Below are positions 9,709 through 50,804 of a DNA stretch of 64,000 bases, piece by piece. A program made the position numbers and the translations under genes. The DNA comes from Elusimicrobiota bacterium (lineage in GTDB: Bacteria; Elusimicrobiota; Elusimicrobia; UBA1565; JACRDR01). Every line of letters starts with the position of its first letter. The first letter of the stretch is position 1. Where the stretch lies: the NCBI GenBank assembly GCA_016194745.1, contig JACQBA010000013.1, forward strand, positions 256,822 to 320,821. The letters run 5' to 3'. The notes beneath the pieces are model-generated. The model was not told the DNA's origin, made no database searches, and saw only the letters and a list, made by a program, of their open reading frames with translations.

Positions 9709-9784
9709 GGGCCGTTAGCTCAATGGTTAGAGCACCGTCCTTACACGACGGGGGTTGGGGGTTCGAGTCCCTCACGGCCCACCA
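9709..9784 (+). tRNA. tRNA-Val (anticodon TAC), encoded CCA
   Basis: Cloverleaf read by hand: acceptor GGGCCGT/ACGGCCC, D-stem GCTC/GAGC, anticodon stem CCGTC/GACGG with loop CTTACAC, T-arm GGGGG-TTCGAGT-CCCTC, discriminator A then CCA. Confidence 0.9.
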
Positions 9785-9805
9785 CTTTCGATCCTAGGAA
9801 CGCCC

Positions 9806-10174
9806 ATGAAGGTCATCGTCTACGAATACGCGAAGTGCTCCACGTGCCGCAAGGCGCTGAAGTTCCTCGATGAGCGCGGCGTCGCCTACGACGCGAGGCC
9901 GATCGTCGACGCGCCGCCGACGCGCGCGGAGCTCTCGCGGATGCTGGGCCACGTCGGCGGCGACGTCCGCCGGCTGTTCAACGTATCCGGCGAGCTGTAT
10001 CGCGAGATGAAGCTGTCCGAGAAGATGAAGACTATCTCGCCCGACGAGGCGATCGCGCTCCTCGCCAAGCACGGCAAGCTCGTGAAGCGCCCTTTCGTGC
10101 TCGTCGACGCCGCCGCGGGCCTCGTCGGCTTCGACCCGAAGGCGTGGGCGGCGCTCTTCCCGATACAGCGCTAG
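9806..10174 (+). CDS. ArsC/Spx-family protein (YffB-like arsenate-reductase fold)
   Basis: MKVIVYEYAKCSTCRKALKFLDERGV... with the CxxC in the N-terminal thioredoxin-like fold, about 120 aa. Internal Met chosen just downstream of the tRNA. Confidence 0.75.
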   Translation: MKVIVYEYAKCSTCRKALKFLDERGVAYDARPIVDAPPTRAELSRMLGHVGGDVRRLFNVSGELYREMKLSEKMKTISPDEAIALLAKHGKLVKRPFVLVDAAAGLVGFDPKAWAALFPIQR

Positions 10175-10223
10175 ACGCCCGCGCCCGCCGCGCCGCCGCC
10201 GTCCGCCCGGGCGCGCCTCGGCG

Positions 10224-10237
10224 GCACCTGCTATAAT
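10224..10237 (+). promoter_or_regulatory. Second copy of the extended -10 cassette GCACCTGCTATAAT, immediately upstream of the PilZ gene
   Basis: Exact 14-nt repeat of 9681-9694, with ~30 nt of flanking similarity. TATAAT at 10232-10237 is only 6 nt before the ATG at 10244, implying a leaderless transcript. Confidence 0.4.
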
Positions 10238-10243
10238 CCTCGC

Positions 10244-10609
10244 ATGGGCTCGGACCAGCGCGCGGCCGTGCGCGCGAAGACGCAGGCGACCGTCCACGTC
10301 TGCTACATGACGGCGGACGGAAAGCGGGAAGGCGACGGGCGCATCGCCGACGTCTCGCGCACCGGCATGCGCTTCTTTACGGAGTACCGGGTCCGCGCCG
10401 AGACGCGGCTCGTCCTGAAGCTCCACTTCCCGCGCTCGTTCCATCGTCTCCCCCTGTCGATCAAGGCGACGGTCGTCCGCTGCGAACCGCAGGAGAACGG
10501 GCCGCTGTTCAACGTCGCGTGCCGGTTCGATAGCCAAACCGGCGAGGCCACCGCCCGGCTCACGCAATTCGTCGGCTGGCTCCTGACCCACGACCCGTCT
10601 CCTCAATAA
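10244..10609 (+). CDS. PilZ domain protein (putative c-di-GMP receptor)
   Basis: N-terminal RxxxR (RAAVRAK) and DxSxxG-like (DVSRTGMRF) motifs of PilZ domains. 121 aa. Confidence 0.7.
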   Translation: MGSDQRAAVRAKTQATVHVCYMTADGKREGDGRIADVSRTGMRFFTEYRVRAETRLVLKLHFPRSFHRLPLSIKATVVRCEPQENGPLFNVACRFDSQTGEATARLTQFVGWLLTHDPSPQ

Positions 10610-34552: not shown

Positions 34553-34719
34553 ACGCGGAGGATATCGAAATCTACGCCGGTACCGCATCCGCCGATCGGC
34601 TCCCGCCGCCGAAGGGCCGAAGACCCACGATCTTGCGGCGCCGTGACGGCCCCGTGACGCGGTATTGACGGTTTCCGTTTATCCTGATAGACTCAGAGCG
34701 GTCCCGCTTTCCTTATAGA

Positions 34720-35697
34720 ATGACATCTTGTGGCAGATCGTGGGCATTGGCCGCCGTACTATCCTGGGCGTCGGCTACGGCTATCGCGCAGGTGAAAGCC
34801 GCTCCCAAACCGACGAACGCGCCGACCGATCTTGTCATCATCTTCGACACGAGCGGGAGCATGGGCGACCGGCTTCCCGCCGGACGCAAACTCGACATCG
34901 CCAAGGCCGCGATGTGGAAGTTCGTCGACGCCTTGCCCAAGAGCGTCAACGTCGGCCTGGTGCGCTACAGCGACTACAACGACTGCGGCGCGAAAGTCGT
35001 ATCGCCCATCATGAAATCTTCGCCCGAAAACCGCGCCCAGTTGAGGTCCGCCATCGCCTCTCTGCGCGCCTACGGCAACACGCCAATCGGCGCCTCCCTG
35101 CGGCGCGCGACCGAGCTCCTCGAATCCTCGAAGGGCAAGAAGCGGATCGTCGTCATGACCGACGGCGAGGACACCTGCAACGAGGCGGAAGTGGGGCGCG
35201 CCTCGGACGAGGCGTGGAAAAAAGGGATCAAGGTCTACGCGATCGGCTTCGCCTTCGGCGCGCTTCCCAGCAAGACGCTGCGCCGCATCGGCATATACAA
35301 GGACGCCAACGACGACGCGCAGCTCGCTTCCGTCTTCGCGGACATCAAGAAATCCCTCGAGCGGGAACCGGGCAAGTTCGACGAGGGCAGGCGCGACCCG
35401 GCTCTCGCCGAAACCCCGCCGGTATCGCTCAAGGGCAAGAGCGGCGCCTTCAGATCGTCGGGGCCTCACGCGGGCAAGCTGTTCAAGACGCTGCAGCTCA
35501 ATTCGTCATACGAGCACCGGTTCGACGAGAACGACCGGTTCACGGTGCTCGAGCACGGCTACCACGTGCTGTTCAACGAGCAGGAGTACATGGTGGACAA
35601 GGTCGAGGTGATGCGCGTACGGCTGGAGGAAAAGTTCAGCTTCATCTACGGCGGCGTCGAGGGATTCGTTTTCGCGCAGGACGTGACGGTACGATAG
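34720..35697 (+). CDS. Secreted von Willebrand factor type A (VWA) domain protein
   Basis: Signal peptide. MIDAS residues DTSGSM ... T ... MTDGEDT. Confidence 0.8.
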   Translation: MTSCGRSWALAAVLSWASATAIAQVKAAPKPTNAPTDLVIIFDTSGSMGDRLPAGRKLDIAKAAMWKFVDALPKSVNVGLVRYSDYNDCGAKVVSPIMKSSPENRAQLRSAIASLRAYGNTPIGASLRRATELLESSKGKKRIVVMTDGEDTCNEAEVGRASDEAWKKGIKVYAIGFAFGALPSKTLRRIGIYKDANDDAQLASVFADIKKSLEREPGKFDEGRRDPALAETPPVSLKGKSGAFRSSGPHAGKLFKTLQLNSSYEHRFDENDRFTVLEHGYHVLFNEQEYMVDKVEVMRVRLEEKFSFIYGGVEGFVFAQDVTVR

Positions 35698-35722
35698 CGA
35701 GGGACTAGGGAGGCATTCAACC

Positions 35723-36448
35723 ATGTGGGCAAGGTTCACCAGGCTAATACGAGCGTTCGCCGGCTTCTTCATCAGCACGATGGAGGACCCGAAGATGATC
35801 CTCGAGCAGACGATGCGAGACATGCAGGACAAGATCCCCGTCATGAACCAGGGCTTGGCCAAGGCGCGCGGCGGGATCATCATGCTCGAGAACGAGGCGA
35901 AGCAGTATGAGCGCGAGGTCGCCCTCCTGACGGCCAAGATCAAGGCCTGCGTCCAGAACAAGGAAGAGAGCCTCGGCGCCCAATACGCGATCCGCCTCAA
36001 GAAGACGCAGGAAGCGCTCGCCCGCAACCGCGAGCAAAGCGCCGCGGCCAAAGCCGGCTACGAGTCCCTCTTGAAGATGAAGGAGAAGTTCATGCGCGAG
36101 ATGAAGGCCAAGACCGAGGAGGCGATGGCCGCCATCCGCGACGCCGAGGCCTCGAAATGGAAGGGCGAGCTCGCCGACGTCTTCGAGCAGTTCGAGGTCG
36201 CCGGTGTCGACGCCACCTACGACGAGATGCTCGGCAAGCTCCGCCAGAAGAACGTGGAGGCCGAGGGGCGTCTCGCCATGGCCGCCGACAGCATCGACTC
36301 CAAGGCCATCGAGATCGACGAGAAGGCCGAGACGCTGGAAGGCAAGGAACTCTTCAAGCAGTTCCAAATGGAGATGGGCGTCGCCGACTCCGGCGACGGC
36401 AAGAAGGAAGAAGGCAAGAAAACGATCGGCATGAAGGAGAAAGAGTAA
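35723..36448 (+). CDS. PspA/IM30 (Vipp1) family protein, ESCRT-III-like
   Basis: N-terminus MWARFTRLIRAFAGFFISTMEDPKMILEQTMRDMQ matches the PspA/IM30 start (amphipathic helix plus EDPEKMLEQ...RDM). Long coiled-coil remainder. 241 aa. Confidence 0.8.
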   Translation: MWARFTRLIRAFAGFFISTMEDPKMILEQTMRDMQDKIPVMNQGLAKARGGIIMLENEAKQYEREVALLTAKIKACVQNKEESLGAQYAIRLKKTQEALARNREQSAAAKAGYESLLKMKEKFMREMKAKTEEAMAAIRDAEASKWKGELADVFEQFEVAGVDATYDEMLGKLRQKNVEAEGRLAMAADSIDSKAIEIDEKAETLEGKELFKQFQMEMGVADSGDGKKEEGKKTIGMKEKE

Positions 36449-38158
36449 ATGGAACTCAAGCTCGGCGGCAAGATCGCGCTGCTTCTCGTCATCCTGGGCC
36501 TCGGCCTCGGAGCCCTGTACAAATTCGGCCTGATCTCGGGCACCGGATTGCCCGGGAGCGGAGGCGCCGGAGCGGCCTCCCCCATCAAGAAGGAGACCCT
36601 CGACAAGATCCGCAAGGGCGAGGAGACGCCCACCACGGCGAAGAACTACAACTTCGTCGCCAAGCAGTCGATCACCGAGGTTAAAGGCACGAGCAACTAC
36701 CAATTCAAGGACAAGACGGTCGTCTTCCCGATCAACATCTGGGGCGGCTGGGCTCCCATCATCGCGGCCAACAACGGCTTCGGCCCGAACAAGGACTCGC
36801 TGTTCTTCAAGAACTACGGATTCCTGGTGGACTTGAAGCTCATCGACGACCCGGTCGCGGCGCGCGACGCCTTCGCCTCCGGACAGTCCCACGTCCTATG
36901 GGGTACGCTCGACATGATCGCGCTCTTCGCGCCGGGCCTGTCGCGGGACTCGCGTACCACGCCGATCGTCTTCCAGCAGATCGACTGGTCGAACGGCGGC
37001 GACGGCATCGTCGTCCGGGCGCACATCAACGAGGCGAAGGACCTGCGGGGCAAGACGATCGTGCTCGCGCAGAACTCGCCCTCGCACTACTACATCCTGA
37101 GCGTGCTGACGGACGCGGGCATCTCGCCGTCGGAGGTGAACTTCAAATTCACGGCGACCGCCTTCGAGGCCGCCAAGGCCTTCGTCGACAACGCCGGGAT
37201 CGACGCCTGCGTATCCTGGGCGCCGGACATCTACAACATCGTCGACGAGAAGTACGGCGGCAAGAAGGGCGGCGTCCAAGGGGCGCGCCTGCTGACGACG
37301 ACGCGCGACGCCTCCCAGCTCATCGCCGACGTGTGGGCGGTGCGGGCCGACTTCGCGCGGGACCACAAGGACATCGTCAAGGGACTCGCGGCCGGGATCT
37401 TCAAGGGCTACGACCTGGTCAAGCAGGACGGGCCCAAGATCGCGGCGCTGATGGCGAAAGGCTTCGGCGTGTCGGTGGACGAGGCGAAGTCCATGATGAT
37501 GGACGCCCACCTGACCAATTACCTGGAGAACAAGAAGTTCTTCCTCGACAAGGACAACCCGGCGAACTTCGCGCGCACGTGGGCGGCCGCGAGCTACGTC
37601 TACAAGGCGTACGGCGCCATCGGCACGCCCACGCGGGCCGAGGAGATCGCCGACACGACGGTCCTCGGCGAGCTCGACGGGCAGTTCCCGCACCACAAGG
37701 ACGAGTACATCCCGGCCTTCAACAAGGTGAACATCTCGCGCATGAAGCTCGAGAGCCAGCCTATTCTGACGAAGTCCGTCATGATCTCGTTCCCGCCCAA
37801 CCAGTGGGCGCTCGACCGCAAGTACGACCAGAACATCGACAACGTGCTCGAGGAGTCCGCGAAGCTCTCGGGCAAGTTCGCCGCCGCGCGCATCGTGATC
37901 GAGGGCAACGTGGACACGAGCCGCAAGATCGAGTTCCAGCGCGAGGGGCCGCGCGTGTTCAAGGAGATGTCCTTGGCCGTGCAGGAGCTCAGCGAGAAGC
38001 GCGCGGAGTCGGTCAAGCAGGCGATCGTGAACAAGTTCAAGTTCAACCCGAACAAGCTCGCCGTGATCGGCAACGGCTGGGACAACCCGGCGTCGCTGAC
38101 CGACCACACGAAGAACCGCCGCGTCGAAATCAAGGTCTATCCGCCCGAGGCCGAGTAG
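36449..38158 (+). CDS. Membrane-anchored ABC substrate-binding protein (NMT1/NitT-TauT type) fused to a C-terminal OmpA-like domain
   Basis: N-terminal TM KIALLLVILGLGLGALY. NMT1/SsuA-like binding fold. C-terminal ~110 aa with OmpA-C-like blocks (LSEKRAESVKQAIV ... NRRVEIKV). ATG immediately follows the PspA TAA. Confidence 0.7.
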   Translation: MELKLGGKIALLLVILGLGLGALYKFGLISGTGLPGSGGAGAASPIKKETLDKIRKGEETPTTAKNYNFVAKQSITEVKGTSNYQFKDKTVVFPINIWGGWAPIIAANNGFGPNKDSLFFKNYGFLVDLKLIDDPVAARDAFASGQSHVLWGTLDMIALFAPGLSRDSRTTPIVFQQIDWSNGGDGIVVRAHINEAKDLRGKTIVLAQNSPSHYYILSVLTDAGISPSEVNFKFTATAFEAAKAFVDNAGIDACVSWAPDIYNIVDEKYGGKKGGVQGARLLTTTRDASQLIADVWAVRADFARDHKDIVKGLAAGIFKGYDLVKQDGPKIAALMAKGFGVSVDEAKSMMMDAHLTNYLENKKFFLDKDNPANFARTWAAASYVYKAYGAIGTPTRAEEIADTTVLGELDGQFPHHKDEYIPAFNKVNISRMKLESQPILTKSVMISFPPNQWALDRKYDQNIDNVLEESAKLSGKFAAARIVIEGNVDTSRKIEFQREGPRVFKEMSLAVQELSEKRAESVKQAIVNKFKFNPNKLAVIGNGWDNPASLTDHTKNRRVEIKVYPPEAE

Positions 38159-38167
38159 GCGGCGCTC

Positions 38168-38974
38168 ATGATGCTGGCCCCCGTGCAGTTCAAGATTCGG
38201 GGCGACTCCGCCCCGAGGAGCCGTTTCCTCCTCGGGGCGGCGAGCGTCACGATCGTCCTGCTGCTCTGGTGGCTGCTGACGGCGGGCGAAAGCGTGGAGA
38301 CGCGCTACCTCAGCCCGCAGATTCTTCCTAACCCGGTGGAAGTGCTGCAGTCGTCGGGCTCCCTGTACACGGAGCGCAACCTGACGACCAGCATCGCCTA
38401 CAGTTTCTTCCGGACCACGGTCGGCTTCCTCATCGCGGCGCTCATCGCGGTGCCGCTCGGGATCCTCATGGCGTCGTTCACGTCCGTGCGGGACTTTTTC
38501 CGCCCGCTCAGCACGATCGGCGGCTACATCCCGATCGCAGTGCTCGTCCCGCTGACGCTGTCGTGGTTCGGGCTCGGGGAGAAGCAAAAGATATTATTTC
38601 TCGCCATCGCGACGTTCGTGATGCTCCTGCCGCTGATTGTCAACGCCATCGACCAGGTGGACGACGTCTACCTGCAGACGGCCTACACGCTCGGCGCCAC
38701 CCCGTGGCAGACCGTCTTTTACGTGCTTGTCCCGGTGGCGCTCGTGGGGATATACGACTATCTCTGCTTGACCTACGGCATCGGCTGGGGATACATCATC
38801 CTCGCCGAGGTCATCGACGCGCGCTTCGGCCTTGGGAGCCTCATCATCACGTCCCAGCGTCGGGGCCCGTACGAGCACGTCTACGCGGTCTTGATCGTGA
38901 TCATACTCATCAGCATCTTGATCAACAACGCGCTCGCGTACGTCGGCAAATGGCTGTTCCCCTATCGAGAGTGA
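38168..38974 (+). CDS. ABC transporter permease (NitT/TauT family, BPD_transp_1)
   Basis: Six TM segments with the EAA-like loop, 268 aa. Confidence 0.85.
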   Translation: MMLAPVQFKIRGDSAPRSRFLLGAASVTIVLLLWWLLTAGESVETRYLSPQILPNPVEVLQSSGSLYTERNLTTSIAYSFFRTTVGFLIAALIAVPLGILMASFTSVRDFFRPLSTIGGYIPIAVLVPLTLSWFGLGEKQKILFLAIATFVMLLPLIVNAIDQVDDVYLQTAYTLGATPWQTVFYVLVPVALVGIYDYLCLTYGIGWGYIILAEVIDARFGLGSLIITSQRRGPYEHVYAVLIVIILISILINNALAYVGKWLFPYRE

Positions 38975-38976
38975 CC

Positions 38977-39876
38977 ATGGACCTTCGCGGAAAGATCGGC
39001 GGCGCCGTCTCGAGGATCCGCGGGCTGTTCGCCCGGCCGGAAGCGCCCGCGCAGGACCCGGCGCGGTTCGCCGCCTACTCGGACACGTCGATCCCGGTGA
39101 TCGAGTGCAAGAACGTCACCAAGATCTTCAAGGATCGCCGCACCGGCAAGGAATCGATCGCGCTCGAGAACGTGTCGTTCACGATCGAAGATCTTCCCAA
39201 TATGGGCGAGTTCATCACGATCCTCGGCCCCTCGGGCTGCGGGAAGAGCACGCTGCTGAACATCATCTCCGGCCTGGAGCCGCACTACCCGCAGACCAAG
39301 GGCGAGGTGAAGGTCAAGGGCGCCCCGGTGGCGGGCCCGGGCTCCGACCGCGGCATGGTTTTCCAGAGCTACTCCTCGTTCCCGTGCTACACCGTGCTCG
39401 AGAACGTCGCGTTCGGGCTCATGCTCAAGGGCGCGCCGGAGAAGGAGCGCGAGGACATCGCGGCGGATTGGATCAAGAAGGTTAAGCTCGCCGGATTCGA
39501 GCGGAAATACCCCAAAGAGCTCAGCGGCGGCATGCGCCAGCGTGTCGCGCTCGCCCGGACGCTCGCGGTCAATCCGAGGATCGTTCTCATGGACGAACCC
39601 TTCGGCGCGCTCGACCGCATCACCCGCTGGGAGATGCAGGACCTCCTCATCGAACTATGGGAGAAGGTCCAGGCGACCGTGTTCCTCGTGACGCACGACA
39701 TCCCCGAAGCGGTGTATCTGGGCGACCGGCTGTTCTTGATGACGCCGCGGCCCGGCCGCCTGACCGAGATCGTGAAGCTCCCCCGGCCCACGGAGAAGGC
39801 CGCCGAGATGCAGCGCACCTCCCGCTTCGCGGAGACCGTCAACGAGATCAGCCGCAAGGTGGAGTCGATCCACTAG
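38977..39876 (+). CDS. ABC transporter ATP-binding protein (NitT/TauT family)
   Basis: Walker A GPSGCGKST, signature LSGGMRQRVALAR, Walker B IVLMDEPFGALD, H-loop VTHD. MVFQ...FPCYTVLENVAFGL is typical of SsuB/TauB-like ATPases. The track ORF start at 38563 is a frame run-on through the permease, so the real start is ATG 38977. Confidence 0.9.
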   Translation: MDLRGKIGGAVSRIRGLFARPEAPAQDPARFAAYSDTSIPVIECKNVTKIFKDRRTGKESIALENVSFTIEDLPNMGEFITILGPSGCGKSTLLNIISGLEPHYPQTKGEVKVKGAPVAGPGSDRGMVFQSYSSFPCYTVLENVAFGLMLKGAPEKEREDIAADWIKKVKLAGFERKYPKELSGGMRQRVALARTLAVNPRIVLMDEPFGALDRITRWEMQDLLIELWEKVQATVFLVTHDIPEAVYLGDRLFLMTPRPGRLTEIVKLPRPTEKAAEMQRTSRFAETVNEISRKVESIH

Positions 39877-39879
39877 CCC

Positions 39880-40704
39880 ATGGCCGACAAGATCAACTAC
39901 GTCAAGGAGGCGTTCAAGCGCCAGGAGAACCTGATCACCCTGGCCGGACTGGGCGTCGCCGGCGTGGCGTTCAATGCGGGATTCCTCCTCTTGGGCGGCG
40001 CCCTCGAGCTGGCCTATCTCTGGCTCATCTCGTCGAATCCGCGGTTCCAGCGCGTCGTGAATTCCGAGAAGAGCCAAGCCCGCCTGCGCTTCGACCAGTC
40101 CGAGAAGGACAAGCTCGCCGCCGCCCTGCCGATGAACGAGCATCGCCGCTTCCAGGAGCTCCAAGGCGTGCGCCAGCGCGTCTACGAGGCCTGGCAGGCC
40201 CGGGACGCGGTCACACAGTCGCTCCTGCAGCCGAGCGTCGACAAGCTGGACTACCTTTTGGATACTTTCCTGCGCGCCCAAGTGACCCTGCACCACATGC
40301 GGTCCCACCTGGCGTCCAGCGACCGGGCGTTCCTTCAGAAGCAGGCGCAGATGATCGAGGCGGAGATCGCGCGGGGGCTCACGGACAAGGTCCGCGAGGT
40401 GAAGGAGCGCAACTTGGACATTCTCAAGCAGCGCCTGGCGAAGCTCCAGAAGCTGCAGGAGGACCAGGAAATCGTCAAGACGCAGCTCGATACCCTCGAG
40501 AACGCGATCAAGTTCGTGAGCGACCAGTCCGTATCGCTCACGGATCCTCAGCAGATCACGGGCCAGATCGACCGGGCGGTCTCCGAGGTAGGCGACACGG
40601 AGCGCTCTCTGCAAGAAGTCGAATCGTTTCTCGGCATGCAGGAAGGCGTCGACAAGAAACAGGAGGGCGCGGCGCGGCAGCAGGCGCAGCAGAAACAAGA
40701 ATGA
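39880..40704 (+). CDS. Membrane-anchored coiled-coil protein, unknown function
   Basis: One N-terminal TM/hairpin (LITLAGLGVAGVAFNAGFLLLGGALELAYLWLI), then ~200 aa of predicted coiled coil and a Gln-rich tail. Confidence 0.55.
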   Translation: MADKINYVKEAFKRQENLITLAGLGVAGVAFNAGFLLLGGALELAYLWLISSNPRFQRVVNSEKSQARLRFDQSEKDKLAAALPMNEHRRFQELQGVRQRVYEAWQARDAVTQSLLQPSVDKLDYLLDTFLRAQVTLHHMRSHLASSDRAFLQKQAQMIEAEIARGLTDKVREVKERNLDILKQRLAKLQKLQEDQEIVKTQLDTLENAIKFVSDQSVSLTDPQQITGQIDRAVSEVGDTERSLQEVESFLGMQEGVDKKQEGAARQQAQQKQE

Positions 40705-42407
40705 GCCTCGAAGGATATCCCGGCTGGGCGAAGGACCTGGCGGACCGCTACATGAGCGGAGCGTCGTCGCTGTTCTTGATCTACGGGAACGTCAACGACT
40801 GGGTGCCCCTGCGCGAGGGCGGCAAGGTGCGCTTCGTGTCCCTGCCCGAGTTCCTCAAGACCGCGGTCTTCGGCAAGCGGGAGATGGTCCTCCAGTACGA
40901 CCAAGGCAGCGGCATCACCATGAGCCGCGACATGGTCACCGATTTCTACAAGGTCGTCGAGGCGATGGACGCCGCCGCCGGCACCGGCTACGCCAAGCGC
41001 CTGCCGAAGGCTCCCGCCGAGGCCCTCGCGGTGATCGACCGCTACCTGCGCACCCGCGCCTCGGCCAAGGGCGGCACCGCGGCCATCATCGACTACGCCC
41101 ACATGGTGGCGCCGCGTAGCGACGTCCAGTTCATGAGCCAGGAGGATTTCCGGACGATCATCCTTCTGCAGAAGTGGGCGAACGATCCGGAGCTCTCCCG
41201 CTCCGACGTGACGATCGCGCTGGTGACCGCGAACCTCCAGGACTTGAACGAGGCGATCATCAACAATCCGTTCACCTCGAAGGTCGAGATTCCGCTCCCC
41301 GACGAAGCCGAACGGCTCGAGTACATCCAATCCACCGCCCTTCAGGTCAAGTACGAAGGCCTGACGCCGGAGACCTTCGCCCGGCAGACGAACGCGCTGT
41401 CGCGGGTCGACATCGAAGTCATCCTGCGCGAGGCGCAGCGGGTGGGCAAGCTCGACCTGGGCTTCGTCGCCAAGAAGAAGAAGGAACTCATCGAGAAGTC
41501 CTGCTTCGGTCTGCTCGAGTTCCTGGAGCCGCGGGCGACCCTCGATGCGGTCCAGGGACAGGGCGCCGCCAAGCAGCGCTTGCGCGAGGACATCGAGCTC
41601 ATCAAGAAGGGGCAATGGGACGCGCTGCCCATGGGATACCTGTTCTGCGGCCCGGTCGGCACGGGCAAGACATATCTCGCGACCTGCGCAATCGGCGAAC
41701 TCGGCGTGCCCTGCGTCCAGCTCCTTAATTTCCGCTCCAAATGGGTCGGAGCGACGGAAGGCAACCTCGAGAAGATCCTGCTCACGCTGCGCGCCCTCGG
41801 CCCGGTCGGGGTCATCATCGACGAGGCCGACGCCTTCATGGGCAGCCGCTCGCAGGACGGCGACAGCGGCACGTCCAACCGCATCTTCGCCCAGTTCGCG
41901 AGCCAGATGGGAGACACCAAGTACCGCGGCAAAATCCTATGGTTCCTCCTGACCTGCAGACCCGACCTGCTTCCCGTGGACATCAAGCGGCAAGGACGCG
42001 TCGAGATCCACATCCCCCTCTTTTATCCGCAGACCGACGCCGAGAAGGGAGAACTCTTCGTGGCCATGTCGAAGAAGCAGAAATGGCCGATCGACGCCAA
42101 GGACGTCGACCCCTCGAGCTTCAATGGCAAGAAATTGTCGGGAGCCGACATCGAGGCCATCCTCGTCAGCGCCAAGCGCAAGAGCCTCCTCGACGGCGAC
42201 GCCAAGGAGAAGAAGCACTACCTGAAGCTCGCGGCCACGGACTTCATCCCCGCGACGAGCTCTTCCGAGGTCCAATACCAGGAGCTCGCCGCGGTCGTGG
42301 AATGCACGGACCGAGGCTTCCTCCCGGAGATCTACCGGAAGGCCGACCGCCTCGAGCTGCTCAAGGAGTTCAACCGCCTCAAGCTCGTCCTCGGAGAGGC
42401 CGCATGA
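40701..42407 (+). CDS. AAA-family ATPase (classical clade) with a degenerate N-terminal AAA-like domain
   Basis: C-terminal domain has Walker A GPVGTGKT, Walker B VGVIIDEADAF and second region of homology TCRPDLLPVDIKRQGRVEIHIPLFYP. The N-terminal ~270 aa lack a P-loop but keep an AAA-like segment (TIALVTANLQDL...FTSKVEIPLPDEAERLEYI). ATGA overlaps on both sides. Confidence 0.8.
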   Translation: MSLEGYPGWAKDLADRYMSGASSLFLIYGNVNDWVPLREGGKVRFVSLPEFLKTAVFGKREMVLQYDQGSGITMSRDMVTDFYKVVEAMDAAAGTGYAKRLPKAPAEALAVIDRYLRTRASAKGGTAAIIDYAHMVAPRSDVQFMSQEDFRTIILLQKWANDPELSRSDVTIALVTANLQDLNEAIINNPFTSKVEIPLPDEAERLEYIQSTALQVKYEGLTPETFARQTNALSRVDIEVILREAQRVGKLDLGFVAKKKKELIEKSCFGLLEFLEPRATLDAVQGQGAAKQRLREDIELIKKGQWDALPMGYLFCGPVGTGKTYLATCAIGELGVPCVQLLNFRSKWVGATEGNLEKILLTLRALGPVGVIIDEADAFMGSRSQDGDSGTSNRIFAQFASQMGDTKYRGKILWFLLTCRPDLLPVDIKRQGRVEIHIPLFYPQTDAEKGELFVAMSKKQKWPIDAKDVDPSSFNGKKLSGADIEAILVSAKRKSLLDGDAKEKKHYLKLAATDFIPATSSSEVQYQELAAVVECTDRGFLPEIYRKADRLELLKEFNRLKLVLGEAA

Positions 42408-43105
42408 GCCTCGGCGACTGGCTCGACAAGTACGTCATCAGCATCGGGCCGCGCAAGGACGCGCCGCCCTCGGGCGAGGTGGACCTTTCCGAGATCGGCC
42501 TCAAGGCGGACGGCAAGATGGATGCGATCGCGGCTCAGGTGGACGAGTCCAAGCTGCGCGCGGTCCCCGGCTTGGACACCCCGTTCCAGAAAATTTACGA
42601 CGCCGCCCGCATCGCCGTGCCCGAGCACAAGTTCACGGTGGAAAAGATCGGCGAGATGCTCGCCCATCCTAAGCTCGCCTCCCTCGCCCGCGAGGCCAAG
42701 GCCGCGGCCGTCCTCGTCGCCCTCGACGCGCAAGGCGTCTCCATCAACAGCGTCCTCGAGGACGCCGTCAAAAAGGACCGCGCGCTCGACATCTTCGAGA
42801 AGGTCCAGCGCGACCACCTGAAGCAGTCGGTGCAGGCCAAGGAGGAGGAAAACCGGCGCCTCGTCGAGGAGATCGAGAAGGTCACGCGGGAGAAGCAGAA
42901 GCTCATCGAGGACAACAAAAAGGCCATCGTCGACATTCAGGCGAAGGCGGCAGACTGGCTGGAGCGGAAGCGAGCCATGGAAAACAACCTCCACGAGATC
43001 GTCCAGCATTTCACGACGGACAATCCGATCACGATCGAGGCGATCGAACTGCCCGCGGCCACGGTAAAGATCACGGACCTCACCCAGCCGAAGAAGGGCT
43101 CATGA
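42404..43105 (+). CDS. Hypothetical protein (C-terminal coiled coil)
   Basis: 233 aa. Translationally coupled to the AAA ATPase gene. No recognisable domain. Confidence 0.55.
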   Translation: MSLGDWLDKYVISIGPRKDAPPSGEVDLSEIGLKADGKMDAIAAQVDESKLRAVPGLDTPFQKIYDAARIAVPEHKFTVEKIGEMLAHPKLASLAREAKAAAVLVALDAQGVSINSVLEDAVKKDRALDIFEKVQRDHLKQSVQAKEEENRRLVEEIEKVTREKQKLIEDNKKAIVDIQAKAADWLERKRAMENNLHEIVQHFTTDNPITIEAIELPAATVKITDLTQPKKGS

Positions 43106-43701
43106 GCGAACAGGCGTCCCCGGTCTTCCCCTCGAAAGGGCACTACCTCGTCGGTTCCCGCCGCGCGGCGCGCGTGGGCGAGACGCCTCTCGACGATCTC
43201 GTGGAAATCTGGCAGCGCGTGACGTCCAGAGTCGTCAAGTACGGCTTCAAGATCGCCTACGAGGACCTCGAGCCGCCCAGGACGGGCATCTTCGACGGAC
43301 ACCGCATCGTCATGGACCCGGACGTCGGGTTCGAGATGCAGTGCTTCGTCCTCCTCCATCTCTTCGGGCATTCCGTTCAGTGGGTCGCCCCCTCCTTGGA
43401 GGCGAAGCTCGCGGCGATCACCGACACCAAGGACAAGGGACGATTCATGGAGGCGCTCAAGGCCTACGAGTTCGAGGCGGCGCGCTTCGGCCTCCAACTT
43501 CTGCGCGAGGCGGACGTCGATGGCATAGACCAGTGGTACAGCGACTTCGTCCATACAGACTGGCGCTACGTCGAGCGCTATTACGAGACCGGCTCGATCC
43601 CCCCGTGGACGTCGTGCGTCGTGACCGGCGCCGCGCCGATCAAGCCCCTCGCGATCCCGCCCCTCAAGCACCGAGCCGTCGAAGTGCGCTTCGCTTTCTG
43701 A
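43102..43701 (+). CDS. Hypothetical protein
   Basis: 199 aa. ATGA overlap upstream and TGATG overlap downstream. No recognisable domain. Confidence 0.55.
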   Translation: MSEQASPVFPSKGHYLVGSRRAARVGETPLDDLVEIWQRVTSRVVKYGFKIAYEDLEPPRTGIFDGHRIVMDPDVGFEMQCFVLLHLFGHSVQWVAPSLEAKLAAITDTKDKGRFMEALKAYEFEAARFGLQLLREADVDGIDQWYSDFVHTDWRYVERYYETGSIPPWTSCVVTGAAPIKPLAIPPLKHRAVEVRFAF

Positions 43702-44396
43702 TGAGCCGTCCCTTCCTGCGGTTGCGGGCGATTCTCTTCCGCTCCCGAGGCATGCTGACGGTGGTCGGCGTATGGTTCGTTCTCGGATTCCTCGGGTTCC
43801 ATTTCGGCGGCGGACTCGATTGGCGGGATTCGTTCCTGTCCGCCATCTACTTCGAGGTGCAGCCGGACAATTTCAGCCAGGGCTACGCCTTCTGGGGTCA
43901 GTCCATGCTTTTCGGCTTCGTCGTCGCCGCGCTGCTGCGGGAGACTCAAGAAAATCACACGGAGAGGTGCCGCGTCATGTCCGGCTTGATGAAGAACCAC
44001 ACGATCATCGTCGGCTTCACCCACCTAGGGAGCCGGCTCGTCGACCACTGCATCGCCAACAAGATCCCCTACGTGCTGATCGAGAAGGAAAAACGGCTCG
44101 TGGACGACCTGATCCGGGCCAACGAGCCGGTCATCGTCGACGACGCCCGCTCGCGCGACGCCCTGCCCAGCGCGAACATCACGCACGCGCGCCGGGTGAT
44201 CATCGCGGCCAACAACATCGAGACCGCGCTGGTGGTCACCAAGAACGCGCGCGACGCCAATCCGTCCTGCCGGATCGCCGCGCGCTGCGCCATCGACGAC
44301 CTTGTCGGCGTCCTGGAAAAGCTGGGTGCGGACCGCGTCTACTTGGCCTCGCTCGCCGCCTTCAATGAGCTGTCTCAATTCCTGGACGAATCCTGA
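43701..44396 (+). CDS. Ion-channel-like protein: two TM segments plus a cytoplasmic RCK/TrkA-N domain
   Basis: Two hydrophobic helices with a re-entrant-like segment. Then GxGxxG-type Rossmann TIIVGFTHLGSRLVDHC...VLIEKE of TrkA-N/RCK domains. No canonical TVGYG K+ filter. Confidence 0.6.
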   Translation: MSRPFLRLRAILFRSRGMLTVVGVWFVLGFLGFHFGGGLDWRDSFLSAIYFEVQPDNFSQGYAFWGQSMLFGFVVAALLRETQENHTERCRVMSGLMKNHTIIVGFTHLGSRLVDHCIANKIPYVLIEKEKRLVDDLIRANEPVIVDDARSRDALPSANITHARRVIIAANNIETALVVTKNARDANPSCRIAARCAIDDLVGVLEKLGADRVYLASLAAFNELSQFLDES

Positions 44397-47313: not shown

Positions 47314-48935
<1,622 letters not shown>

Positions 48936-48939
<4 letters not shown>

Positions 48940-50804
48940 TGACTCGACACGCCATGCTCGCGCTGGCCGCCCGCGTCTTCAAGGCGTGGCTCGCCGTCTG
49001 CGTCGCCGCGTTCGCCTTCTCGCTCTTGTGGCCCGAAAACGTGGCGTTGCCCGTCCGGTTCCTCCGCGAGTTCGCCGAAGTCACGTTGCTCGTGCTCGGC
49101 ACGCTGCTCGCCGTGCACTGGTCGATGCGCCACCTCATCCAGCAGCTCGCCGACTGGATGCGCCTGACGCGGACCGGGCAGACCGTCGCACCGCCGCCGG
49201 CGGTGCCCCAAGGCCTTCTCGCGCCGCTCGTCGAGGAGGCGGCGACGATGGCGCAGAGCTTGTCGCGGGCCCAGTCCTCCGCCGAGCTCGAGGCGCGCCT
49301 GCGGCTTCAGGCCGACTCGCTGTGGACCGCCGAGCGTCTCCGCGAACAGGTCAAGGCGAAACTCCAAGGGAGGTCGCTCCTGGTGGTAGGCAATCGCCAG
49401 CCCTACCGGCACGTCCGGCGCGGCGGCGCGGTGACCTTCGAGATGCCGGCAAGCGGCCTCGTGACCGGCCTCGAGCCGGTCCTGCGCGCCTGCGGCGGCA
49501 CCTGGATCGGCCAGGGAGACGGGAACGCGGACAAGGAGACCGCCGACGAACACGGCCGCTTGCGGGTACCGCCGGATGATCCGCAGTACGTCCTGCGGCG
49601 AGTCTGGCTCAGCCCCGAGGAGGAAGCGGGCTTCTATTACGGCTTCTCCAACGAAGGCCTGTGGCCGTTGTGCCATATCGCGCACACGCGCCCCGTGTTC
49701 CGCGCGGCGGACTGGGAGCATTACCAGGCCGTCAACCGGAAATTCGCCGAGGCCGTGCTTGAGGAGATCGTCAATCTCGAGGAGCCTTTCCTATTGATCC
49801 AGGACTACCACTTCACGCTGCTCCCGCGGATGATCAAGGAGCGCCGCCCGGACGCCCGCGTGGCTCTCTTTTGGCACATCCCCTGGCCCAATGCGGAGGC
49901 ATTCGGCATCTGCCCTTGGCAAACGCAGCTGCTGTCGGGAATGCTCGCCTCCGACATCGTCGGCTTCCACACCCAATACCACTGCAACAACTTCCTGGAC
50001 ACGGTCGACCGCGTCGTCGAATGCCGGATCGACCGCGAGCATTTCTCGGTGCAGCGCGGCTCGCACACCGCGTACGTAAAGCCGTTCCCGATCAGCGTGG
50101 CGTTTTCCGAGCCGGTCCCGGGCCGGTTCGACCGCGCGCGGGCCCGCGCGATCGTGAAGGAGAAGACCGGCGCGTCGGCGCCGCTCCTGGCGGTCGGCGT
50201 CGACCGGATGGACTACACGAAGGGCATCGCCGAGCGCTTCCGCGGCGTCGAGCGGTTCTTGGAGAAGTACCCCCGCTACATGGGCAAGTTCTCTCTCGTG
50301 CAACTGGGGGCCCCCAGCCGCACCAACATCCAGGCCTACGGACGGTTCGTGAGCGAGATGGAAGCGGAGGCGCGCCGCATCAACGAGCGCTTCGACACCG
50401 AGGATTGGCAGCCGATCGTGCTGGTCGAGAAGCACCACAGCCACGAGGAGATACTCCCGTTCTACCAAGCCGCCGACGTCTGCATGGTCACCTCGCTGCA
50501 CGACGGCATGAACCTCGTCGCCAAGGAGTTCGTCGCCGCGCGCGAGGACGACCGCGGCTCCCTGATCCTCAGCCGGTTCACCGGCGCGGCACGCGAGCTG
50601 CAGGACGCGCTCCTCATCAATCCCTACGACGCCGAGGACACCGCCGAGGCGATCCGCGCCGCGGTCGAGATGAGCGAGACGGAACAAGCCCTGCGGATGG
50701 TCCGGCTGCGCAGGACCGTGCGCGAGAACAACGTCTATCGCTGGGCGGCGAACCTGATCTCGGAACTGGCCGCCGTCCGGCTCGACATCGCCGTCCGCAG
50801 ATAA
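48936..50804 (+). CDS. otsA: Alpha,alpha-trehalose-phosphate synthase (OtsA, GT20) with a ~175-aa N-terminal membrane extension
   Basis: The GT20 core aligns from [10 protein letters not shown] (compare E. coli OtsA RLVVVSNRIAP) through [10 protein letters not shown]. The N-terminal extension has two predicted TM helices. ATGATG overlap with the treS stop. Confidence 0.85.

What the first reader, a model, noticed from the sequence alone, without database searches (positions are those of the whole stretch)
40701..42407. Tandem AAA protein (degenerate D1-like + active classical D2) co-operonic with PspA — possible bacterial Vps4 analog
The C-terminal domain carries the Walker A/B motifs and a second region of homology with two Arg (RQGRVEIHI), as in the classical AAA clade (Vps4, katanin, FtsH, p97). 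The N-terminal ~270 residues retain AAA-like helical segments but no P-loop, so they are probably an inactive AAA-like or substrate-recognition domain.

Classical-clade AAA proteins are rare as stand-alone bacterial proteins outside FtsH. Physical linkage to an ESCRT-III-fold gene makes a disassembly or remodelling role plausible.
Basis: partly seen in the sequence, partly recalled or inferred. Interest (0 to 1): 0.7.

Follow-up and report, generated by a model that had tools for sequence, protein, structure and literature searches.

The report
PspA-operon tandem AAA ATPase
This gene encodes a two-domain AAA ATPase (dead first domain, active second) from a widespread bacterial family that nearly always sits beside a PspA membrane-repair gene, so it is a testable candidate for the missing bacterial Vps4 counterpart, an idea already published in 2024.

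Summary
Window 40701-42407 (+) is a real 568-aa gene. Residues ~1-270 form an AAA-like domain without a P-loop. Residues ~277-500 form a classical-type AAA domain with Walker A/B, a KWVG pore loop and two SRH arginines. It is the seventh gene of a tightly packed nine-gene operon that begins with a vWA gene and PspA.

Synteny is strong from the AAA side. Of 53 related loci with at least 7 kb of upstream sequence, 48 carry PspA and/or a conserved membrane-anchored coiled-coil protein (TMCC), across at least five phyla. TMCC is the gene translationally coupled to the ATPase here.

The protein is not a Vps4 family member. It has no MIT or Vps4_C domain, scores far below the CdvC cut-off, and never groups with Vps4 in a bootstrap tree. 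Its D2 is a separate lineage, with Cys replacing the sensor-1 Asn.

PspAs of this subfamily often lack an adjacent ATPase (7 of 7 deliberately sampled). The ATPase therefore looks like an accessory.

"Works like Vps4 on PspA" is plausible but untested. It is also not new: Ravi et al. 2024 (mSystems) described this exact gene order and proposed ATP-dependent remodelling. Verdict: a new member of a known, experimentally uncharacterised kind.

The parts
34720..35697 (+). First gene of the operon: vWA-domain protein with a hydrophobic N-terminus.
   Evidence: Pfam VWA E 1.3e-19. A weak sigma-70-like site at 34665-34693 lies just upstream; this is a consensus match only.
35723..36448 (+). PspA/IM30 (ESCRT-III-superfamily) protein, 241 aa, with a conserved N-terminal amphipathic segment and a C-terminal KTIG motif (residues 233-236, nt 36419-36430).
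   Evidence: PF04012 at 45.5 bits against a cut-off of 33.9. It is 43-59% identical to AAA-linked PspAs of three other phyla. The K[TS][IVLM][GA] tail is present in all 46 complete AAA-linked orthologues (the 47th ORF, L002, runs on past the gene end).
36449..38158 (+). Solute-binding protein (NMT1/TauA/SsuA-like) fused to a C-terminal OmpA peptidoglycan-binding domain.
   Evidence: Pfam NMT1 3.8e-6 and OmpA 5.5e-9. NCBIfam urea/sulfonate/taurine SBP models.
38168..38974 (+). ABC transporter permease.
   Evidence: BPD_transp_1 1.2e-20. TauC/SaoP-like.
38977..39876 (+). ABC transporter ATPase (TauB/NitT family).
   Evidence: ABC_tran 5.7e-30. Taurine ABC ATPase model 1.1e-68, below its cut-off. 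Start read.
39880..40704 (+). TMCC: 274-aa protein with a hydrophobic hairpin (residues 18-50, nt 39931-40029) followed by long cytoplasmic coiled-coil helices. It is translationally coupled to the ATPase and is a candidate membrane anchor, adaptor or second substrate.
   Evidence: Its stop overlaps the AAA start. It is 27% identical (E 2e-32) to the gene at the same position in an acidobacterial operon. A homologue is present in 44 of 53 loci with enough upstream sequence. AF2 gives an all-helical model, pLDDT 80.5. No ESCRT-III similarity was detected.
40701..41510 (+). AAA protein, D1-like domain (residues 1-270). The fold is AAA alpha/beta plus lid. The nucleotide site is degenerate: FLIYGNVNDWVP replaces the P-loop, IIDYAH replaces Walker B, and there are no arginine fingers.
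41529..42200 (+). AAA protein, D2 catalytic domain (residues ~277-500). Coordinates: Walker A 41649-41672, pore loop 1 KWVG 41739-41750, Walker B 41814-41831, sensor-1 position LLTCRPD 41946-41966 (Cys in place of Asn), SRH arginines 41988-41999.
   Evidence: PF00004 E 3.1e-23. Invariant residues in 40 homologues. A short helix at 344-347 between beta2 and alpha2 in the AF2 model. Coordinates.
42201..42407 (+). AAA protein, conserved C-terminal helical extension (residues ~501-568; F515, Q527, E534, C535, T536 invariant or nearly so). Its role is unknown.
42404..43105 (+). d233: 233-aa conserved accessory protein (coiled coil, 'NPIT' motif). In Acidobacteriota its homologue lies immediately upstream of PspA.
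   Evidence: ATGA overlap with the AAA stop. Homologues at E 1e-25 to 1e-32 upstream of PspA in 15 loci. No Pfam family.
43102..43701 (+). d199: 199-aa last gene of the operon, with weak metallopeptidase-like similarity (HLFGH).
   Evidence: Overlaps the d233 stop. Homologues lie just downstream of the AAA on the opposite strand in 6 acidobacterial loci. DUF6782 E 0.016, below cut-off. Terminator-like hairpins at 43680-43728.

Best explanation
The gene encodes a cytoplasmic tandem AAA ATPase with a structural, non-catalytic D1 ring and an ATP-hydrolysing, substrate-threading D2 ring. It belongs to a distinct bacterial family that is an accessory module of a particular PspA subfamily.

The most likely mechanism is as follows. 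The protein forms a hexamer. The membrane-anchored coiled-coil protein TMCC, whose gene is translationally coupled to it, holds it at the inner membrane. The D2 pore loops (K-W-V-G) pull on PspA and/or TMCC subunits, disassembling, recycling or remodelling PspA polymers on the membrane. That would make it a functional analogue of Vps4 acting on ESCRT-III. Architecturally it is closer to Pex1/Pex6, which has an inactive D1, an active D2 and a membrane receptor.

The co-encoded ABC importer, whose binding protein carries an OmpA peptidoglycan-binding domain, places the system in envelope or solute-stress physiology.

Shown here: gene, domain architecture, motif conservation, operon structure, and cross-phylum synteny. 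Inferred: hexamer formation, ATPase activity, membrane recruitment by TMCC, and PspA as the substrate.
For: Architecture and motifs. Invariant residues include the pore-loop W348/G350, Walker A K323, Walker B D374/E375 and R430/R433.

Operon: nine + strand genes run from 34720 to 43701 with gaps of at most 25 nt. There are three ATGA overlaps around the ATPase.

Synteny from the AAA side:
- PspA-AAA dyads 6-44 nt apart in Planctomycetota and Riflebacteria.
- The full PspA-SBP/OmpA-permease-ABC-TMCC-AAA order in Acidobacteriota.
- Of 53 loci with at least 7 kb upstream, 41 have PspA, 44 have TMCC and 48 have either. Four of the 5 exceptions are Myxococcales, where PspA sits about 7.5-8 kb upstream, at the edge of the fetched flank.

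The AAA-linked PspAs are unusually conserved (43-59% identity across phyla). They share a C-terminal K-T-[IV]-G tail after a variable linker, in all 46 complete orthologues. E. coli PspA has no such tail.

The same inference from the same gene order was made independently by Ravi et al. 2024.

The field has no known PspA disassemblase.
Against: - There is no experimental datum for any member of the family.
- Seven of seven PspA-subfamily genes sampled from the PspA side have no such ATPase within 10 kb. These were chosen on long contigs not already known to carry the AAA. Six of the seven keep the KT[IV]G-type tail. PspA therefore does not require an adjacent ATPase, and the tail does not co-vary with ATPase adjacency.
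- In this window PspA is four genes away, whereas TMCC is the coupled neighbour.
- The sensor-1 Asn is Cys, so ATPase competence is assumed rather than shown.
- D2 does not group with Vps4.
- TMCC shows no detectable ESCRT-III or PspA similarity.
Confidence: 0.5

Rival explanations
1. The ATPase works on TMCC or on membrane proteins of the co-encoded ABC transporter, as an extraction or quality-control motor like Msp1/ATAD1, FtsH or Pex1/6. PspA is only a co-regulated stress protein and is not the substrate.
Against: Planctomycetota and Riflebacteria have bare PspA-AAA dyads with no TMCC detected and no ABC transporter in the same operon. This points to PspA as the minimal partner.
Confidence: 0.2
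2. The regulatory direction is reversed. PspA binds and controls the ATPase, as PspA inhibits the AAA+ protein PspF in E. coli, and the ATPase acts on another target released under membrane stress.
For: There is precedent for PspA acting as an AAA+ adaptor or inhibitor of PspF (papers read). PspA often occurs without the ATPase.
Against: The protein has no sigma-54 interaction domain and no HTH; only PF00004 is found. The invariant aromatic pore loop and double Arg finger indicate a polypeptide-threading motor. No alternative target is conserved in the dyad loci.
Confidence: 0.15
3. The operon is an anti-phage defence system of the IetA/IteA AAA type.
For: Generic similarity of D2 to IetA/IteA models: PADLOC E 1.9e-16, and NCBIfam IteA 61.5 bits against a cut-off of 510.
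Against: No IetS-like protease and no other PADLOC component is present in the operon. The hits cover only the AAA core. The conserved partners are PspA, a transporter and coiled-coil proteins. The gene order is stable across phyla rather than sitting in variable islands.
Confidence: 0.03
4. The adjacency is fortuitous and there is no functional coupling to PspA or TMCC.
For: PspA-side sampling shows that many PspAs lack the ATPase.
Against: 48 of 53 AAA loci from at least five phyla carry PspA and/or TMCC on the same strand within 8 kb. My own rough estimate, not a computed figure, is that a gene present once or twice per genome would land that close by chance in well under 1% of loci. Overlapping stop and start codons link the genes in the window.
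Confidence: 0.05

Closest known systems
PspA-associated 'inactive classical AAA + classical AAA' ATPase operons described by Ravi et al., mSystems 2024 (PMC11237479; example OGG56892.1, Candidatus Handelsmanbacteria)
   Same: The gene order is identical: PspA -> SBP(PBPB)+OmpA -> permease -> ABC ATPase -> TM protein -> inactive AAA + classical AAA. The functional proposal, ATP-dependent membrane remodelling, is also the same.
   Different: The host phylum differs (Elusimicrobiota). This operon adds a vWA gene in front and two accessory genes (d233, d199) behind. The paper calls the TM protein a 'divergent Snf7'; I could not reproduce this with Pfam, hhalign or Foldseek.
Vps4/CdvC with ESCRT-III (archaea and eukaryotes)
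   Same: A classical-type AAA with a Vps4-like pore loop (S-K-W-x-G) and a double Arg finger, encoded with an ESCRT-III-superfamily protein. The partner PspA carries a short conserved C-terminal motif after a flexible linker, which is formally like a MIM.
   Different: There is no MIT domain, no Vps4_C or beta-domain, and an extra degenerate AAA domain. The CdvC model score is far below its cut-off. Bootstrap support for grouping with Vps4 is 0%. Identity is 24-28%. Sensor-1 is Cys.
Pex1/Pex6 (type II AAA with inactive D1, active D2, recruited by a membrane anchor)
   Different: There are no N-terminal double-psi barrel domains. It is a single gene rather than a heterohexamer pair. The family is bacterial, and identity is only 16%.
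p97/Cdc48/VAT, Rix7/NVL and Drg1/Afg2
   Same: These are the best sequence and Foldseek matches, with full-length D1-D2 alignment.
   Different: There is no N-domain and D1 has no nucleotide site. TIGR01243 scores 74.6 bits against a cut-off of 802. It does not group with p97 D1 or D2 in the tree.
PspF-PspA (E. coli)
   Same: An AAA+ protein genetically linked to PspA.
   Different: PspF is a sigma-54 enhancer-binding protein with an HTH, from a different AAA+ clade. Neither domain is present here.

Membership tests
Classical AAA clade (PF00004) | Walker A GxxGxGK[ST] and Walker B hhhhDE. | tested here: met
   GPVGTGKT 317-324 and IIDEAD 372-377, invariant in 40 homologues. PF00004 E 3.1e-23.
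Classical AAA clade (PF00004) | Second region of homology with two arginines. | tested here: met
   R430 and R433 are invariant.
Classical AAA clade (PF00004) | Short helix inserted between beta2 and alpha2, ahead of pore loop 1. This criterion is from my own knowledge of AAA+ classification. | tested here: met
   In the AF2 model, strand 338-341 is followed by helix 344-347, then KWVG, then helix 353-366. This rests on a model, not an experimental structure.
Classical AAA clade (PF00004) | Sensor-1 Asn in the T-N motif. | tested here: not met
   The motif is LLTCRPD. C419 is conserved in at least 90% of homologues and is Ala in the rest. T418 is invariant.
Classical AAA clade (PF00004) | Groups with classical families rather than other AAA+ clades. 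| tested here: inconclusive
Vps4/CdvC | N-terminal MIT domain. | tested here: not met
   There is no Pfam MIT hit. The N-terminus is an AAA-like domain.
Vps4/CdvC | Single AAA cassette with Vps4_C, or reaching the CdvC equivalog score. | tested here: not met
   No Vps4_C hit. NF041006 CdvC scores 53.4 bits against a cut-off of 650.
Vps4/CdvC | Phylogenetic grouping with Vps4 or the meiotic clade. | tested here: not met
   Bootstrap support is 0% for family+Vps4 and for family+(Vps4, spastin, katanin), from 500 NJ bootstraps over 221 columns. The reference sequences were verified identical to PDB chains, apart from the engineered Walker B E->Q mutation in the katanin chain.
Vps4/CdvC | Encoded next to an ESCRT-III-superfamily gene. 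| tested here: met
   PspA is in the same operon here, and directly adjacent in Planctomycetota and Riflebacteria.
Vps4/CdvC | ATP-dependent disassembly of ESCRT-III polymers. | not testable with these tools
   This needs biochemistry.
PspA-associated tandem AAA operon (Ravi et al. 2024) | Two AAA domains in one polypeptide, with the N-terminal one inactive. | tested here: met
PspA-associated tandem AAA operon (Ravi et al. 2024) | Operon containing PspA, a PBPB+OmpA binding protein, a permease, an ABC ATPase and a membrane-anchored helical protein. | tested here: met
   The gene order is identical to the Table S3 entry OGG56892.1.
PspA-associated tandem AAA operon (Ravi et al. 2024) | The membrane-anchored partner has a divergent Snf7 domain. 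| tested here: not met
   No Snf7 hit at E<=5 in four orthologues. hhalign against PspA gives probability 0.5%. Foldseek against the PDB gives a best E of 0.07 with no ESCRT-III among the hits. More sensitive profile methods might still find it.
Cdc48/p97 | N-terminal double-psi barrel domain, two active or nucleotide-binding cassettes, and the TIGR01243 score. | tested here: not met
   The protein starts directly with D1. D1 lacks a P-loop. TIGR01243 scores 74.6 bits against 802.65.
PspF-type enhancer-binding protein | Sigma-54 interaction domain and a C-terminal HTH. | tested here: not met
   Only PF00004 (and, below its cut-off, AAA_22) is found.
IetA/IteA defence ATPase | Reaches the model cut-off and is paired with an IetS protease. 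| tested here: not met
   61.5 bits against a cut-off of 510. No other PADLOC hit in the operon.

The most novel reading that the evidence does not exclude
This family is a true bacterial counterpart of the ESCRT-III/Vps4 pair that arose independently of Vps4. In this reading, a membrane-tethered tandem AAA hexamer docks on TMCC. It recognises the conserved C-terminal K-T-[IV]-G tail of its cognate PspA as a MIM-like signal. It then threads PspA through the D2 pore to disassemble or recycle the polymer. This would overturn the current view that bacteria lack a dedicated ESCRT-III disassemblase.
Probability: 0.25. Interest if true: 0.8.

Novelty: new member of a known kind. Interest (0 to 1): 0.45.

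Why it matters
How bacterial ESCRT-III-superfamily polymers (PspA, Vipp1) are taken apart is an open question. A 2025 review states that a Vps4-like ATPase appears absent in bacteria (PMC7619361). Structural work invokes unnamed chaperones or PspF (PMC11746142).

This family is the best genomic candidate for such a motor. It occurs in cultured organisms: Myxococcus eversor, Corallococcus spp., Gracilimonas mengyeensis DSM 21985 and Fodinibius sediminis DSM 21194. The hypothesis can therefore be tested directly.

The value is tempered in two ways. The association and its interpretation are already published (Ravi et al. 2024). And many PspAs of this subfamily lack an adjacent ATPase.

Tried and rejected
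- TMCC as an ESCRT-III/Snf7 protein. I tested this with a profile search against PDB sequences, hhalign against an AAA-linked PspA profile, Foldseek of an AF2 model against the PDB, and lenient Pfam scans of four orthologues. None showed similarity, so I do not call it ESCRT-III.
- Vps4 orthology. Rejected by domain content, model scores and the tree.
- Defence system. Only generic IetA-type AAA similarity was found.
- Regulatory RNA in the operon. No Rfam match; the window holds only two distant tRNAs.
- Promoter and terminator scans. Counts are not above shuffled expectation. I used them only as weak hints for operon ends.
- KT[IV]G tail as an ATPase-specific docking signal. I checked whether it disappears when the ATPase is not adjacent. 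It persists in 6 of 7 such PspAs. The idea is kept only as speculation.
- The downstream gene d233 compared with the gene downstream of the ATPase in an acidobacterial locus showed no similarity. Its true homologues lie upstream of PspA there.
- Whole-genome checks.
Full report
**The gene.** Window 40701-42407 (+) is a 568-codon ORF. Its ATG overlaps the stop codon of the upstream gene (caagaATGAgc). Its stop overlaps the ATG of the downstream gene at 42404. A 100% identical protein is on record from an Elusimicrobia metagenome-assembled genome on a 386-kb contig. The family is large: 7339 hits at E<=1e-10, most of them full length at 45-76% identity.

**C-terminal domain (D2).** Pfam finds PF00004 (AAA) at residues 314-439 with E 3.1e-23 and nothing in the N-terminal half. 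In an alignment of 40 diverse homologues the following are conserved:
- Walker A GPVGTGKT (317-324), with G317, P318, G320-K323 invariant and T324 nearly so.
- Pore-loop W348 and G350 (K-W-V-G here), invariant.
- Walker B D374 and E375 (IIDEAD), invariant.
- SRH arginines R430 and R433 (KRQGRVEIHI), invariant.
- The canonical sensor-1 Asn is replaced by a nearly invariant Cys (LLTCRPD). Calling D2 'active' is therefore an inference.

**N-terminal domain (D1).** The N-terminal 270 residues are a degenerate AAA domain.
- FLIYGNVNDWVP sits where the P-loop should be, and IIDYAH where Walker B should be.
- An hhalign comparison of the N-half profile with the C-half profile gives E 8.8e-5 (probability 60%). 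It aligns in register at the Walker-B strand, the sensor-1 strand, the 'IPLPD..ER' segment and the lid.
- The AlphaFold2 model built on the 40-sequence alignment is confident (pLDDT 88.7, pTM 0.82).
- Foldseek aligns the model over about 560-610 columns with D1-D2 of p97/Cdc48, Rix7 and Drg1, at E about 1e-18 and TM-score up to 0.56.

**Which AAA clade.**
- The best solved-structure sequence matches are Cdc48/p97 D2, at 2e-28.
- All NCBIfam matches are far below their curated cut-offs: CDC48 74.6 of 803 bits, PAN 63 of 500, IteA 61.5 of 510, CdvC 53.4 of 650, FtsH 52.4 of 600.
- The model shows the short helix (344-347) between beta2 and alpha2 that I know as a hallmark of the classical clade.

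**Tree.** I built a neighbour-joining tree on 221 columns. The references were yeast Vps4, human spastin, katanin and p97 D1/D2, M. jannaschii PAN, and E. coli FtsH, ClpX and Lon.
- The E. coli sequences came from NC_000913.3.
- The family's D2 is monophyletic at 100%.
- The seven classical references cluster to its exclusion at 98%.
- Support for the family joining Vps4, the meiotic clade, p97, PAN or FtsH is 0%.
- Identity to the window D2 is 23-28% for classical references (Vps4 highest at 27.6%) and 18-21% for ClpX and Lon.

D2 is thus a separate, divergent lineage at the base of, or beside, the sampled classical families. It is not a Vps4 relative. This tree is small and distance-based, and a dense ML analysis is still needed.

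**The operon.** Nine + strand genes are packed from 34720 to 43701:
1. vWA protein.
2. PspA (PF04012, 45.5 bits against a cut-off of 33.9).
3. NMT1/TauA-like solute-binding protein fused to OmpA.
4. ABC permease.
5. ABC ATPase.
6. A 274-aa protein with a hydrophobic hairpin and long coiled coils (TMCC).
7. The tandem AAA.
8. A 233-aa protein (d233).
9. A 199-aa protein (d199).

Gaps are at most 25 nt, and three junctions are ATGA overlaps. PspA is 4.25 kb upstream of the ATPase. The translationally coupled neighbour is TMCC.

**Synteny from the ATPase side.** Four contexts fetched by protein identity gave the following:
- PspA directly upstream of the AAA in a planctomycete (6-nt gap) and a riflebacterium (28-nt gap).
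- The full PspA-SBP-SBP/OmpA-permease-ABC-TMCC-AAA order in an acidobacterium.
- One locus where the gene caller missed PspA, but a PspA-like ORF follows the AAA.

The best 80 come from Elusimicrobiota, Riflebacteria, Planctomycetota, Acidobacteriota, Myxococcota and Balneolaceae/Bacteroidota, including cultured strains.

I then searched six-frame ORFs of all 84 loci with the window's operon proteins.
- Acidobacteriota show d233-PspA-SBP/OmpA-permease-ABC-TMCC-AAA, often with d199 downstream on the other strand.
- Balneolaceae show PspA-x-TMCC-enoyl-CoA hydratase-CNNM-AAA.
- Myxococcales show PspA-SBP-TMCC followed by 4-5 kb of other genes and then the AAA.

Among 53 loci with at least 7 kb upstream, 41 contain PspA, 44 contain TMCC and 48 contain one or both. 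Four of the five exceptions are Myxococcales, where PspA sits at the very edge of the fetched flank in sister loci. TMCC of the window is 27% identical (E 2e-32) to the acidobacterial protein at the same position.

**Synteny from the PspA side.** The window PspA retrieves a compact subfamily of 108 hits, all at 39% identity or more.
- None has the ATPase within 10 kb, and this was confirmed by six-frame search.
- Two (Rhodocaloribacter litoris, Rubricoccus marinus) keep PspA-x-TMCC-ECH-CNNM but lack the AAA at the position it occupies in Balneolaceae.
- Six other subfamily members appear to share a contig with a listed AAA homologue, judged by matching contig lengths.

The dependence is therefore one-sided. 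The ATPase almost always comes with PspA/TMCC, but PspA often comes without an adjacent ATPase. Whether those genomes encode it elsewhere could not be checked.

**Extra observations on the partners.**
- AAA-linked PspAs are 43-59% identical across phyla. They share an N-terminal MWxRFxRxxRSFxGFF segment and a C-terminal K-T-[IV]-G motif 6-10 residues from the end, after a variable acidic or Pro/Ala-rich linker. The motif is present in all 46 complete AAA-linked orthologues, the 47th ORF (L002) running on past the gene end. It is present in 84 of 101 full-length subfamily members.
- E. coli PspA is 21% identical and ends without such a tail.
- Formally this resembles the MIM motifs that Vps4 recognises. 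But the tail persists in six of the seven PspAs that have no adjacent ATPase, so it is not evidence for ATPase docking.
- TMCC orthologues outside Elusimicrobiota end in a basic R-x-R-[VIL]-[RK] tail.
- Ravi et al. call TMCC a divergent Snf7. I found no support in the tests I could run: the PDB profile search returned nothing relevant, hhalign against PspA gave probability 0.5%, Foldseek of the pLDDT-80.5 helical model gave a best E of 0.07 against BAR and coiled-coil proteins, and Pfam Snf7 was not hit at E<=5 in four orthologues.

[quoted passage not shown] They suggest ATP-dependent membrane remodelling comparable to Snf7-Vps4.

Their Table S3 entry for OGG56892.1 has exactly the gene order seen here. 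I found no experimental study in the searchable library.

A 2025 review still says a Vps4-like ATPase 'appears absent in bacteria'. A 2024 PspA structure paper attributes putative turnover to 'chaperones or PspF'.

**Mechanism and rivals.** The best-supported reading is a membrane-proximal, substrate-threading tandem AAA motor that remodels or disassembles PspA and/or TMCC assemblies.
- It would be a functional analogue of Vps4.
- Architecturally it is closer to Pex1/Pex6.
- TMCC is the likely receptor.
- I give this about 0.5.

Rivals:
- The ATPase acts on TMCC or on transporter and membrane proteins, with PspA merely co-regulated (0.2).
- PspA regulates the ATPase, as it does PspF (0.15).
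- Defence system (0.03); only generic IetA similarity was found.
- Chance adjacency (0.05); contradicted by the synteny.

**Verdict.** This is an Elusimicrobiota member of a published, experimentally untested PspA-associated tandem-AAA system. Interest is moderate, because the open question it addresses is real and testable in cultured hosts.

Noticed in passing
window 36419-36430 (PspA residues 233-236); loci L001-L084: AAA-linked PspAs from five phyla share a C-terminal K-T-[IV]-G motif after a variable linker. It is present in all 46 complete AAA-linked orthologues and in 84 of 101 subfamily members. It is absent from E. coli PspA and from Rubricoccaceae PspAs. It persists in PspAs without an adjacent ATPase.
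   Followed up: partly
window 41946-41966 (AAA residues 416-422): The sensor-1 Asn of the classical T-N motif is replaced by a nearly invariant Cys (Ala in a few homologues) across the whole family. The consequence for ATP hydrolysis is unknown.
   Followed up: partly
TMCC orthologues, e.g. L003 5457-6398, L041 4850-5734, L048 2566-3363: Outside Elusimicrobiota, the membrane-anchored coiled-coil partner ends in a conserved basic tail R-x-R-[VIL]-[RK]-x after an acidic, low-complexity linker. The window's own TMCC lacks it.
   Followed up: no
window 42404-43105; e.g. L020 1139-1900, L045 2290-3081: The 233-aa protein downstream of the ATPase has homologues (E 1e-25 to 1e-32, shared 'ENPIT' motif) that sit immediately upstream of PspA in 15 acidobacterial loci. 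It is a conserved but positionally mobile member of the system, with no family assignment.
   Followed up: partly
window 43102-43701; L053, L055, L064, L067, L078, L083 about 9730-10380 (-): The 199-aa last gene has homologues just downstream of the ATPase on the opposite strand in Acidobacteriota. It has a weak sub-threshold match to a putative metallopeptidase family (DUF6782, E 0.016) around an HLFGH segment.
   Followed up: partly
L041 5735-7877; L048 4451-5230; L087 12461-14689; L088 12420-14628: An enoyl-CoA hydratase gene follows TMCC in Balneolaceae, Rhodothermales and Myxococcaceae loci; in the Balneolaceae and Rhodothermales loci it is followed by a CNNM/CorC transporter gene. A pyrimidine-nucleoside phosphorylase often precedes PspA. 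The reason for the link is unknown.
   Followed up: no
L092 1-11399: A PspA of this subfamily (KTVG tail) lies on a 98.7-kb contig. The surrounding region is full of short unannotated ORFs plus an Anti-Pycsar Apyc1-like gene, a poly(A) polymerase/HD gene and DFP/flavoprotein genes. It looks phage-like, so this may be a phage-encoded PspA.
   Followed up: no
L093 13128-14889: In a Bryobacteraceae locus the operon d233-PspA-SBP/OmpA-permease is followed by an AbiEii/AbiEi toxin-antitoxin pair on the opposite strand, in place of ABC-TMCC-AAA. This suggests disruption or replacement of the distal half.
   Followed up: no
window 39657-42407 (+), 40548-41615 (-), 41342-42013 (-): Long alternative-frame ORFs (up to 916 aa) overlap the real genes. 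These are a by-product of about 64% G+C and are not genes. The true start of the ATPase is the ATG at 40701.
   Followed up: yes
window 47314-48939 (+) and about 49000-50804 (+): Downstream of the operon are ORFs that, by eye only, look like an alpha-amylase/trehalose-synthase-type enzyme and a trehalose-6-phosphate synthase (OtsA). No family search was run on them. If correct, osmoprotectant genes lie near an envelope-stress operon.
   Followed up: no
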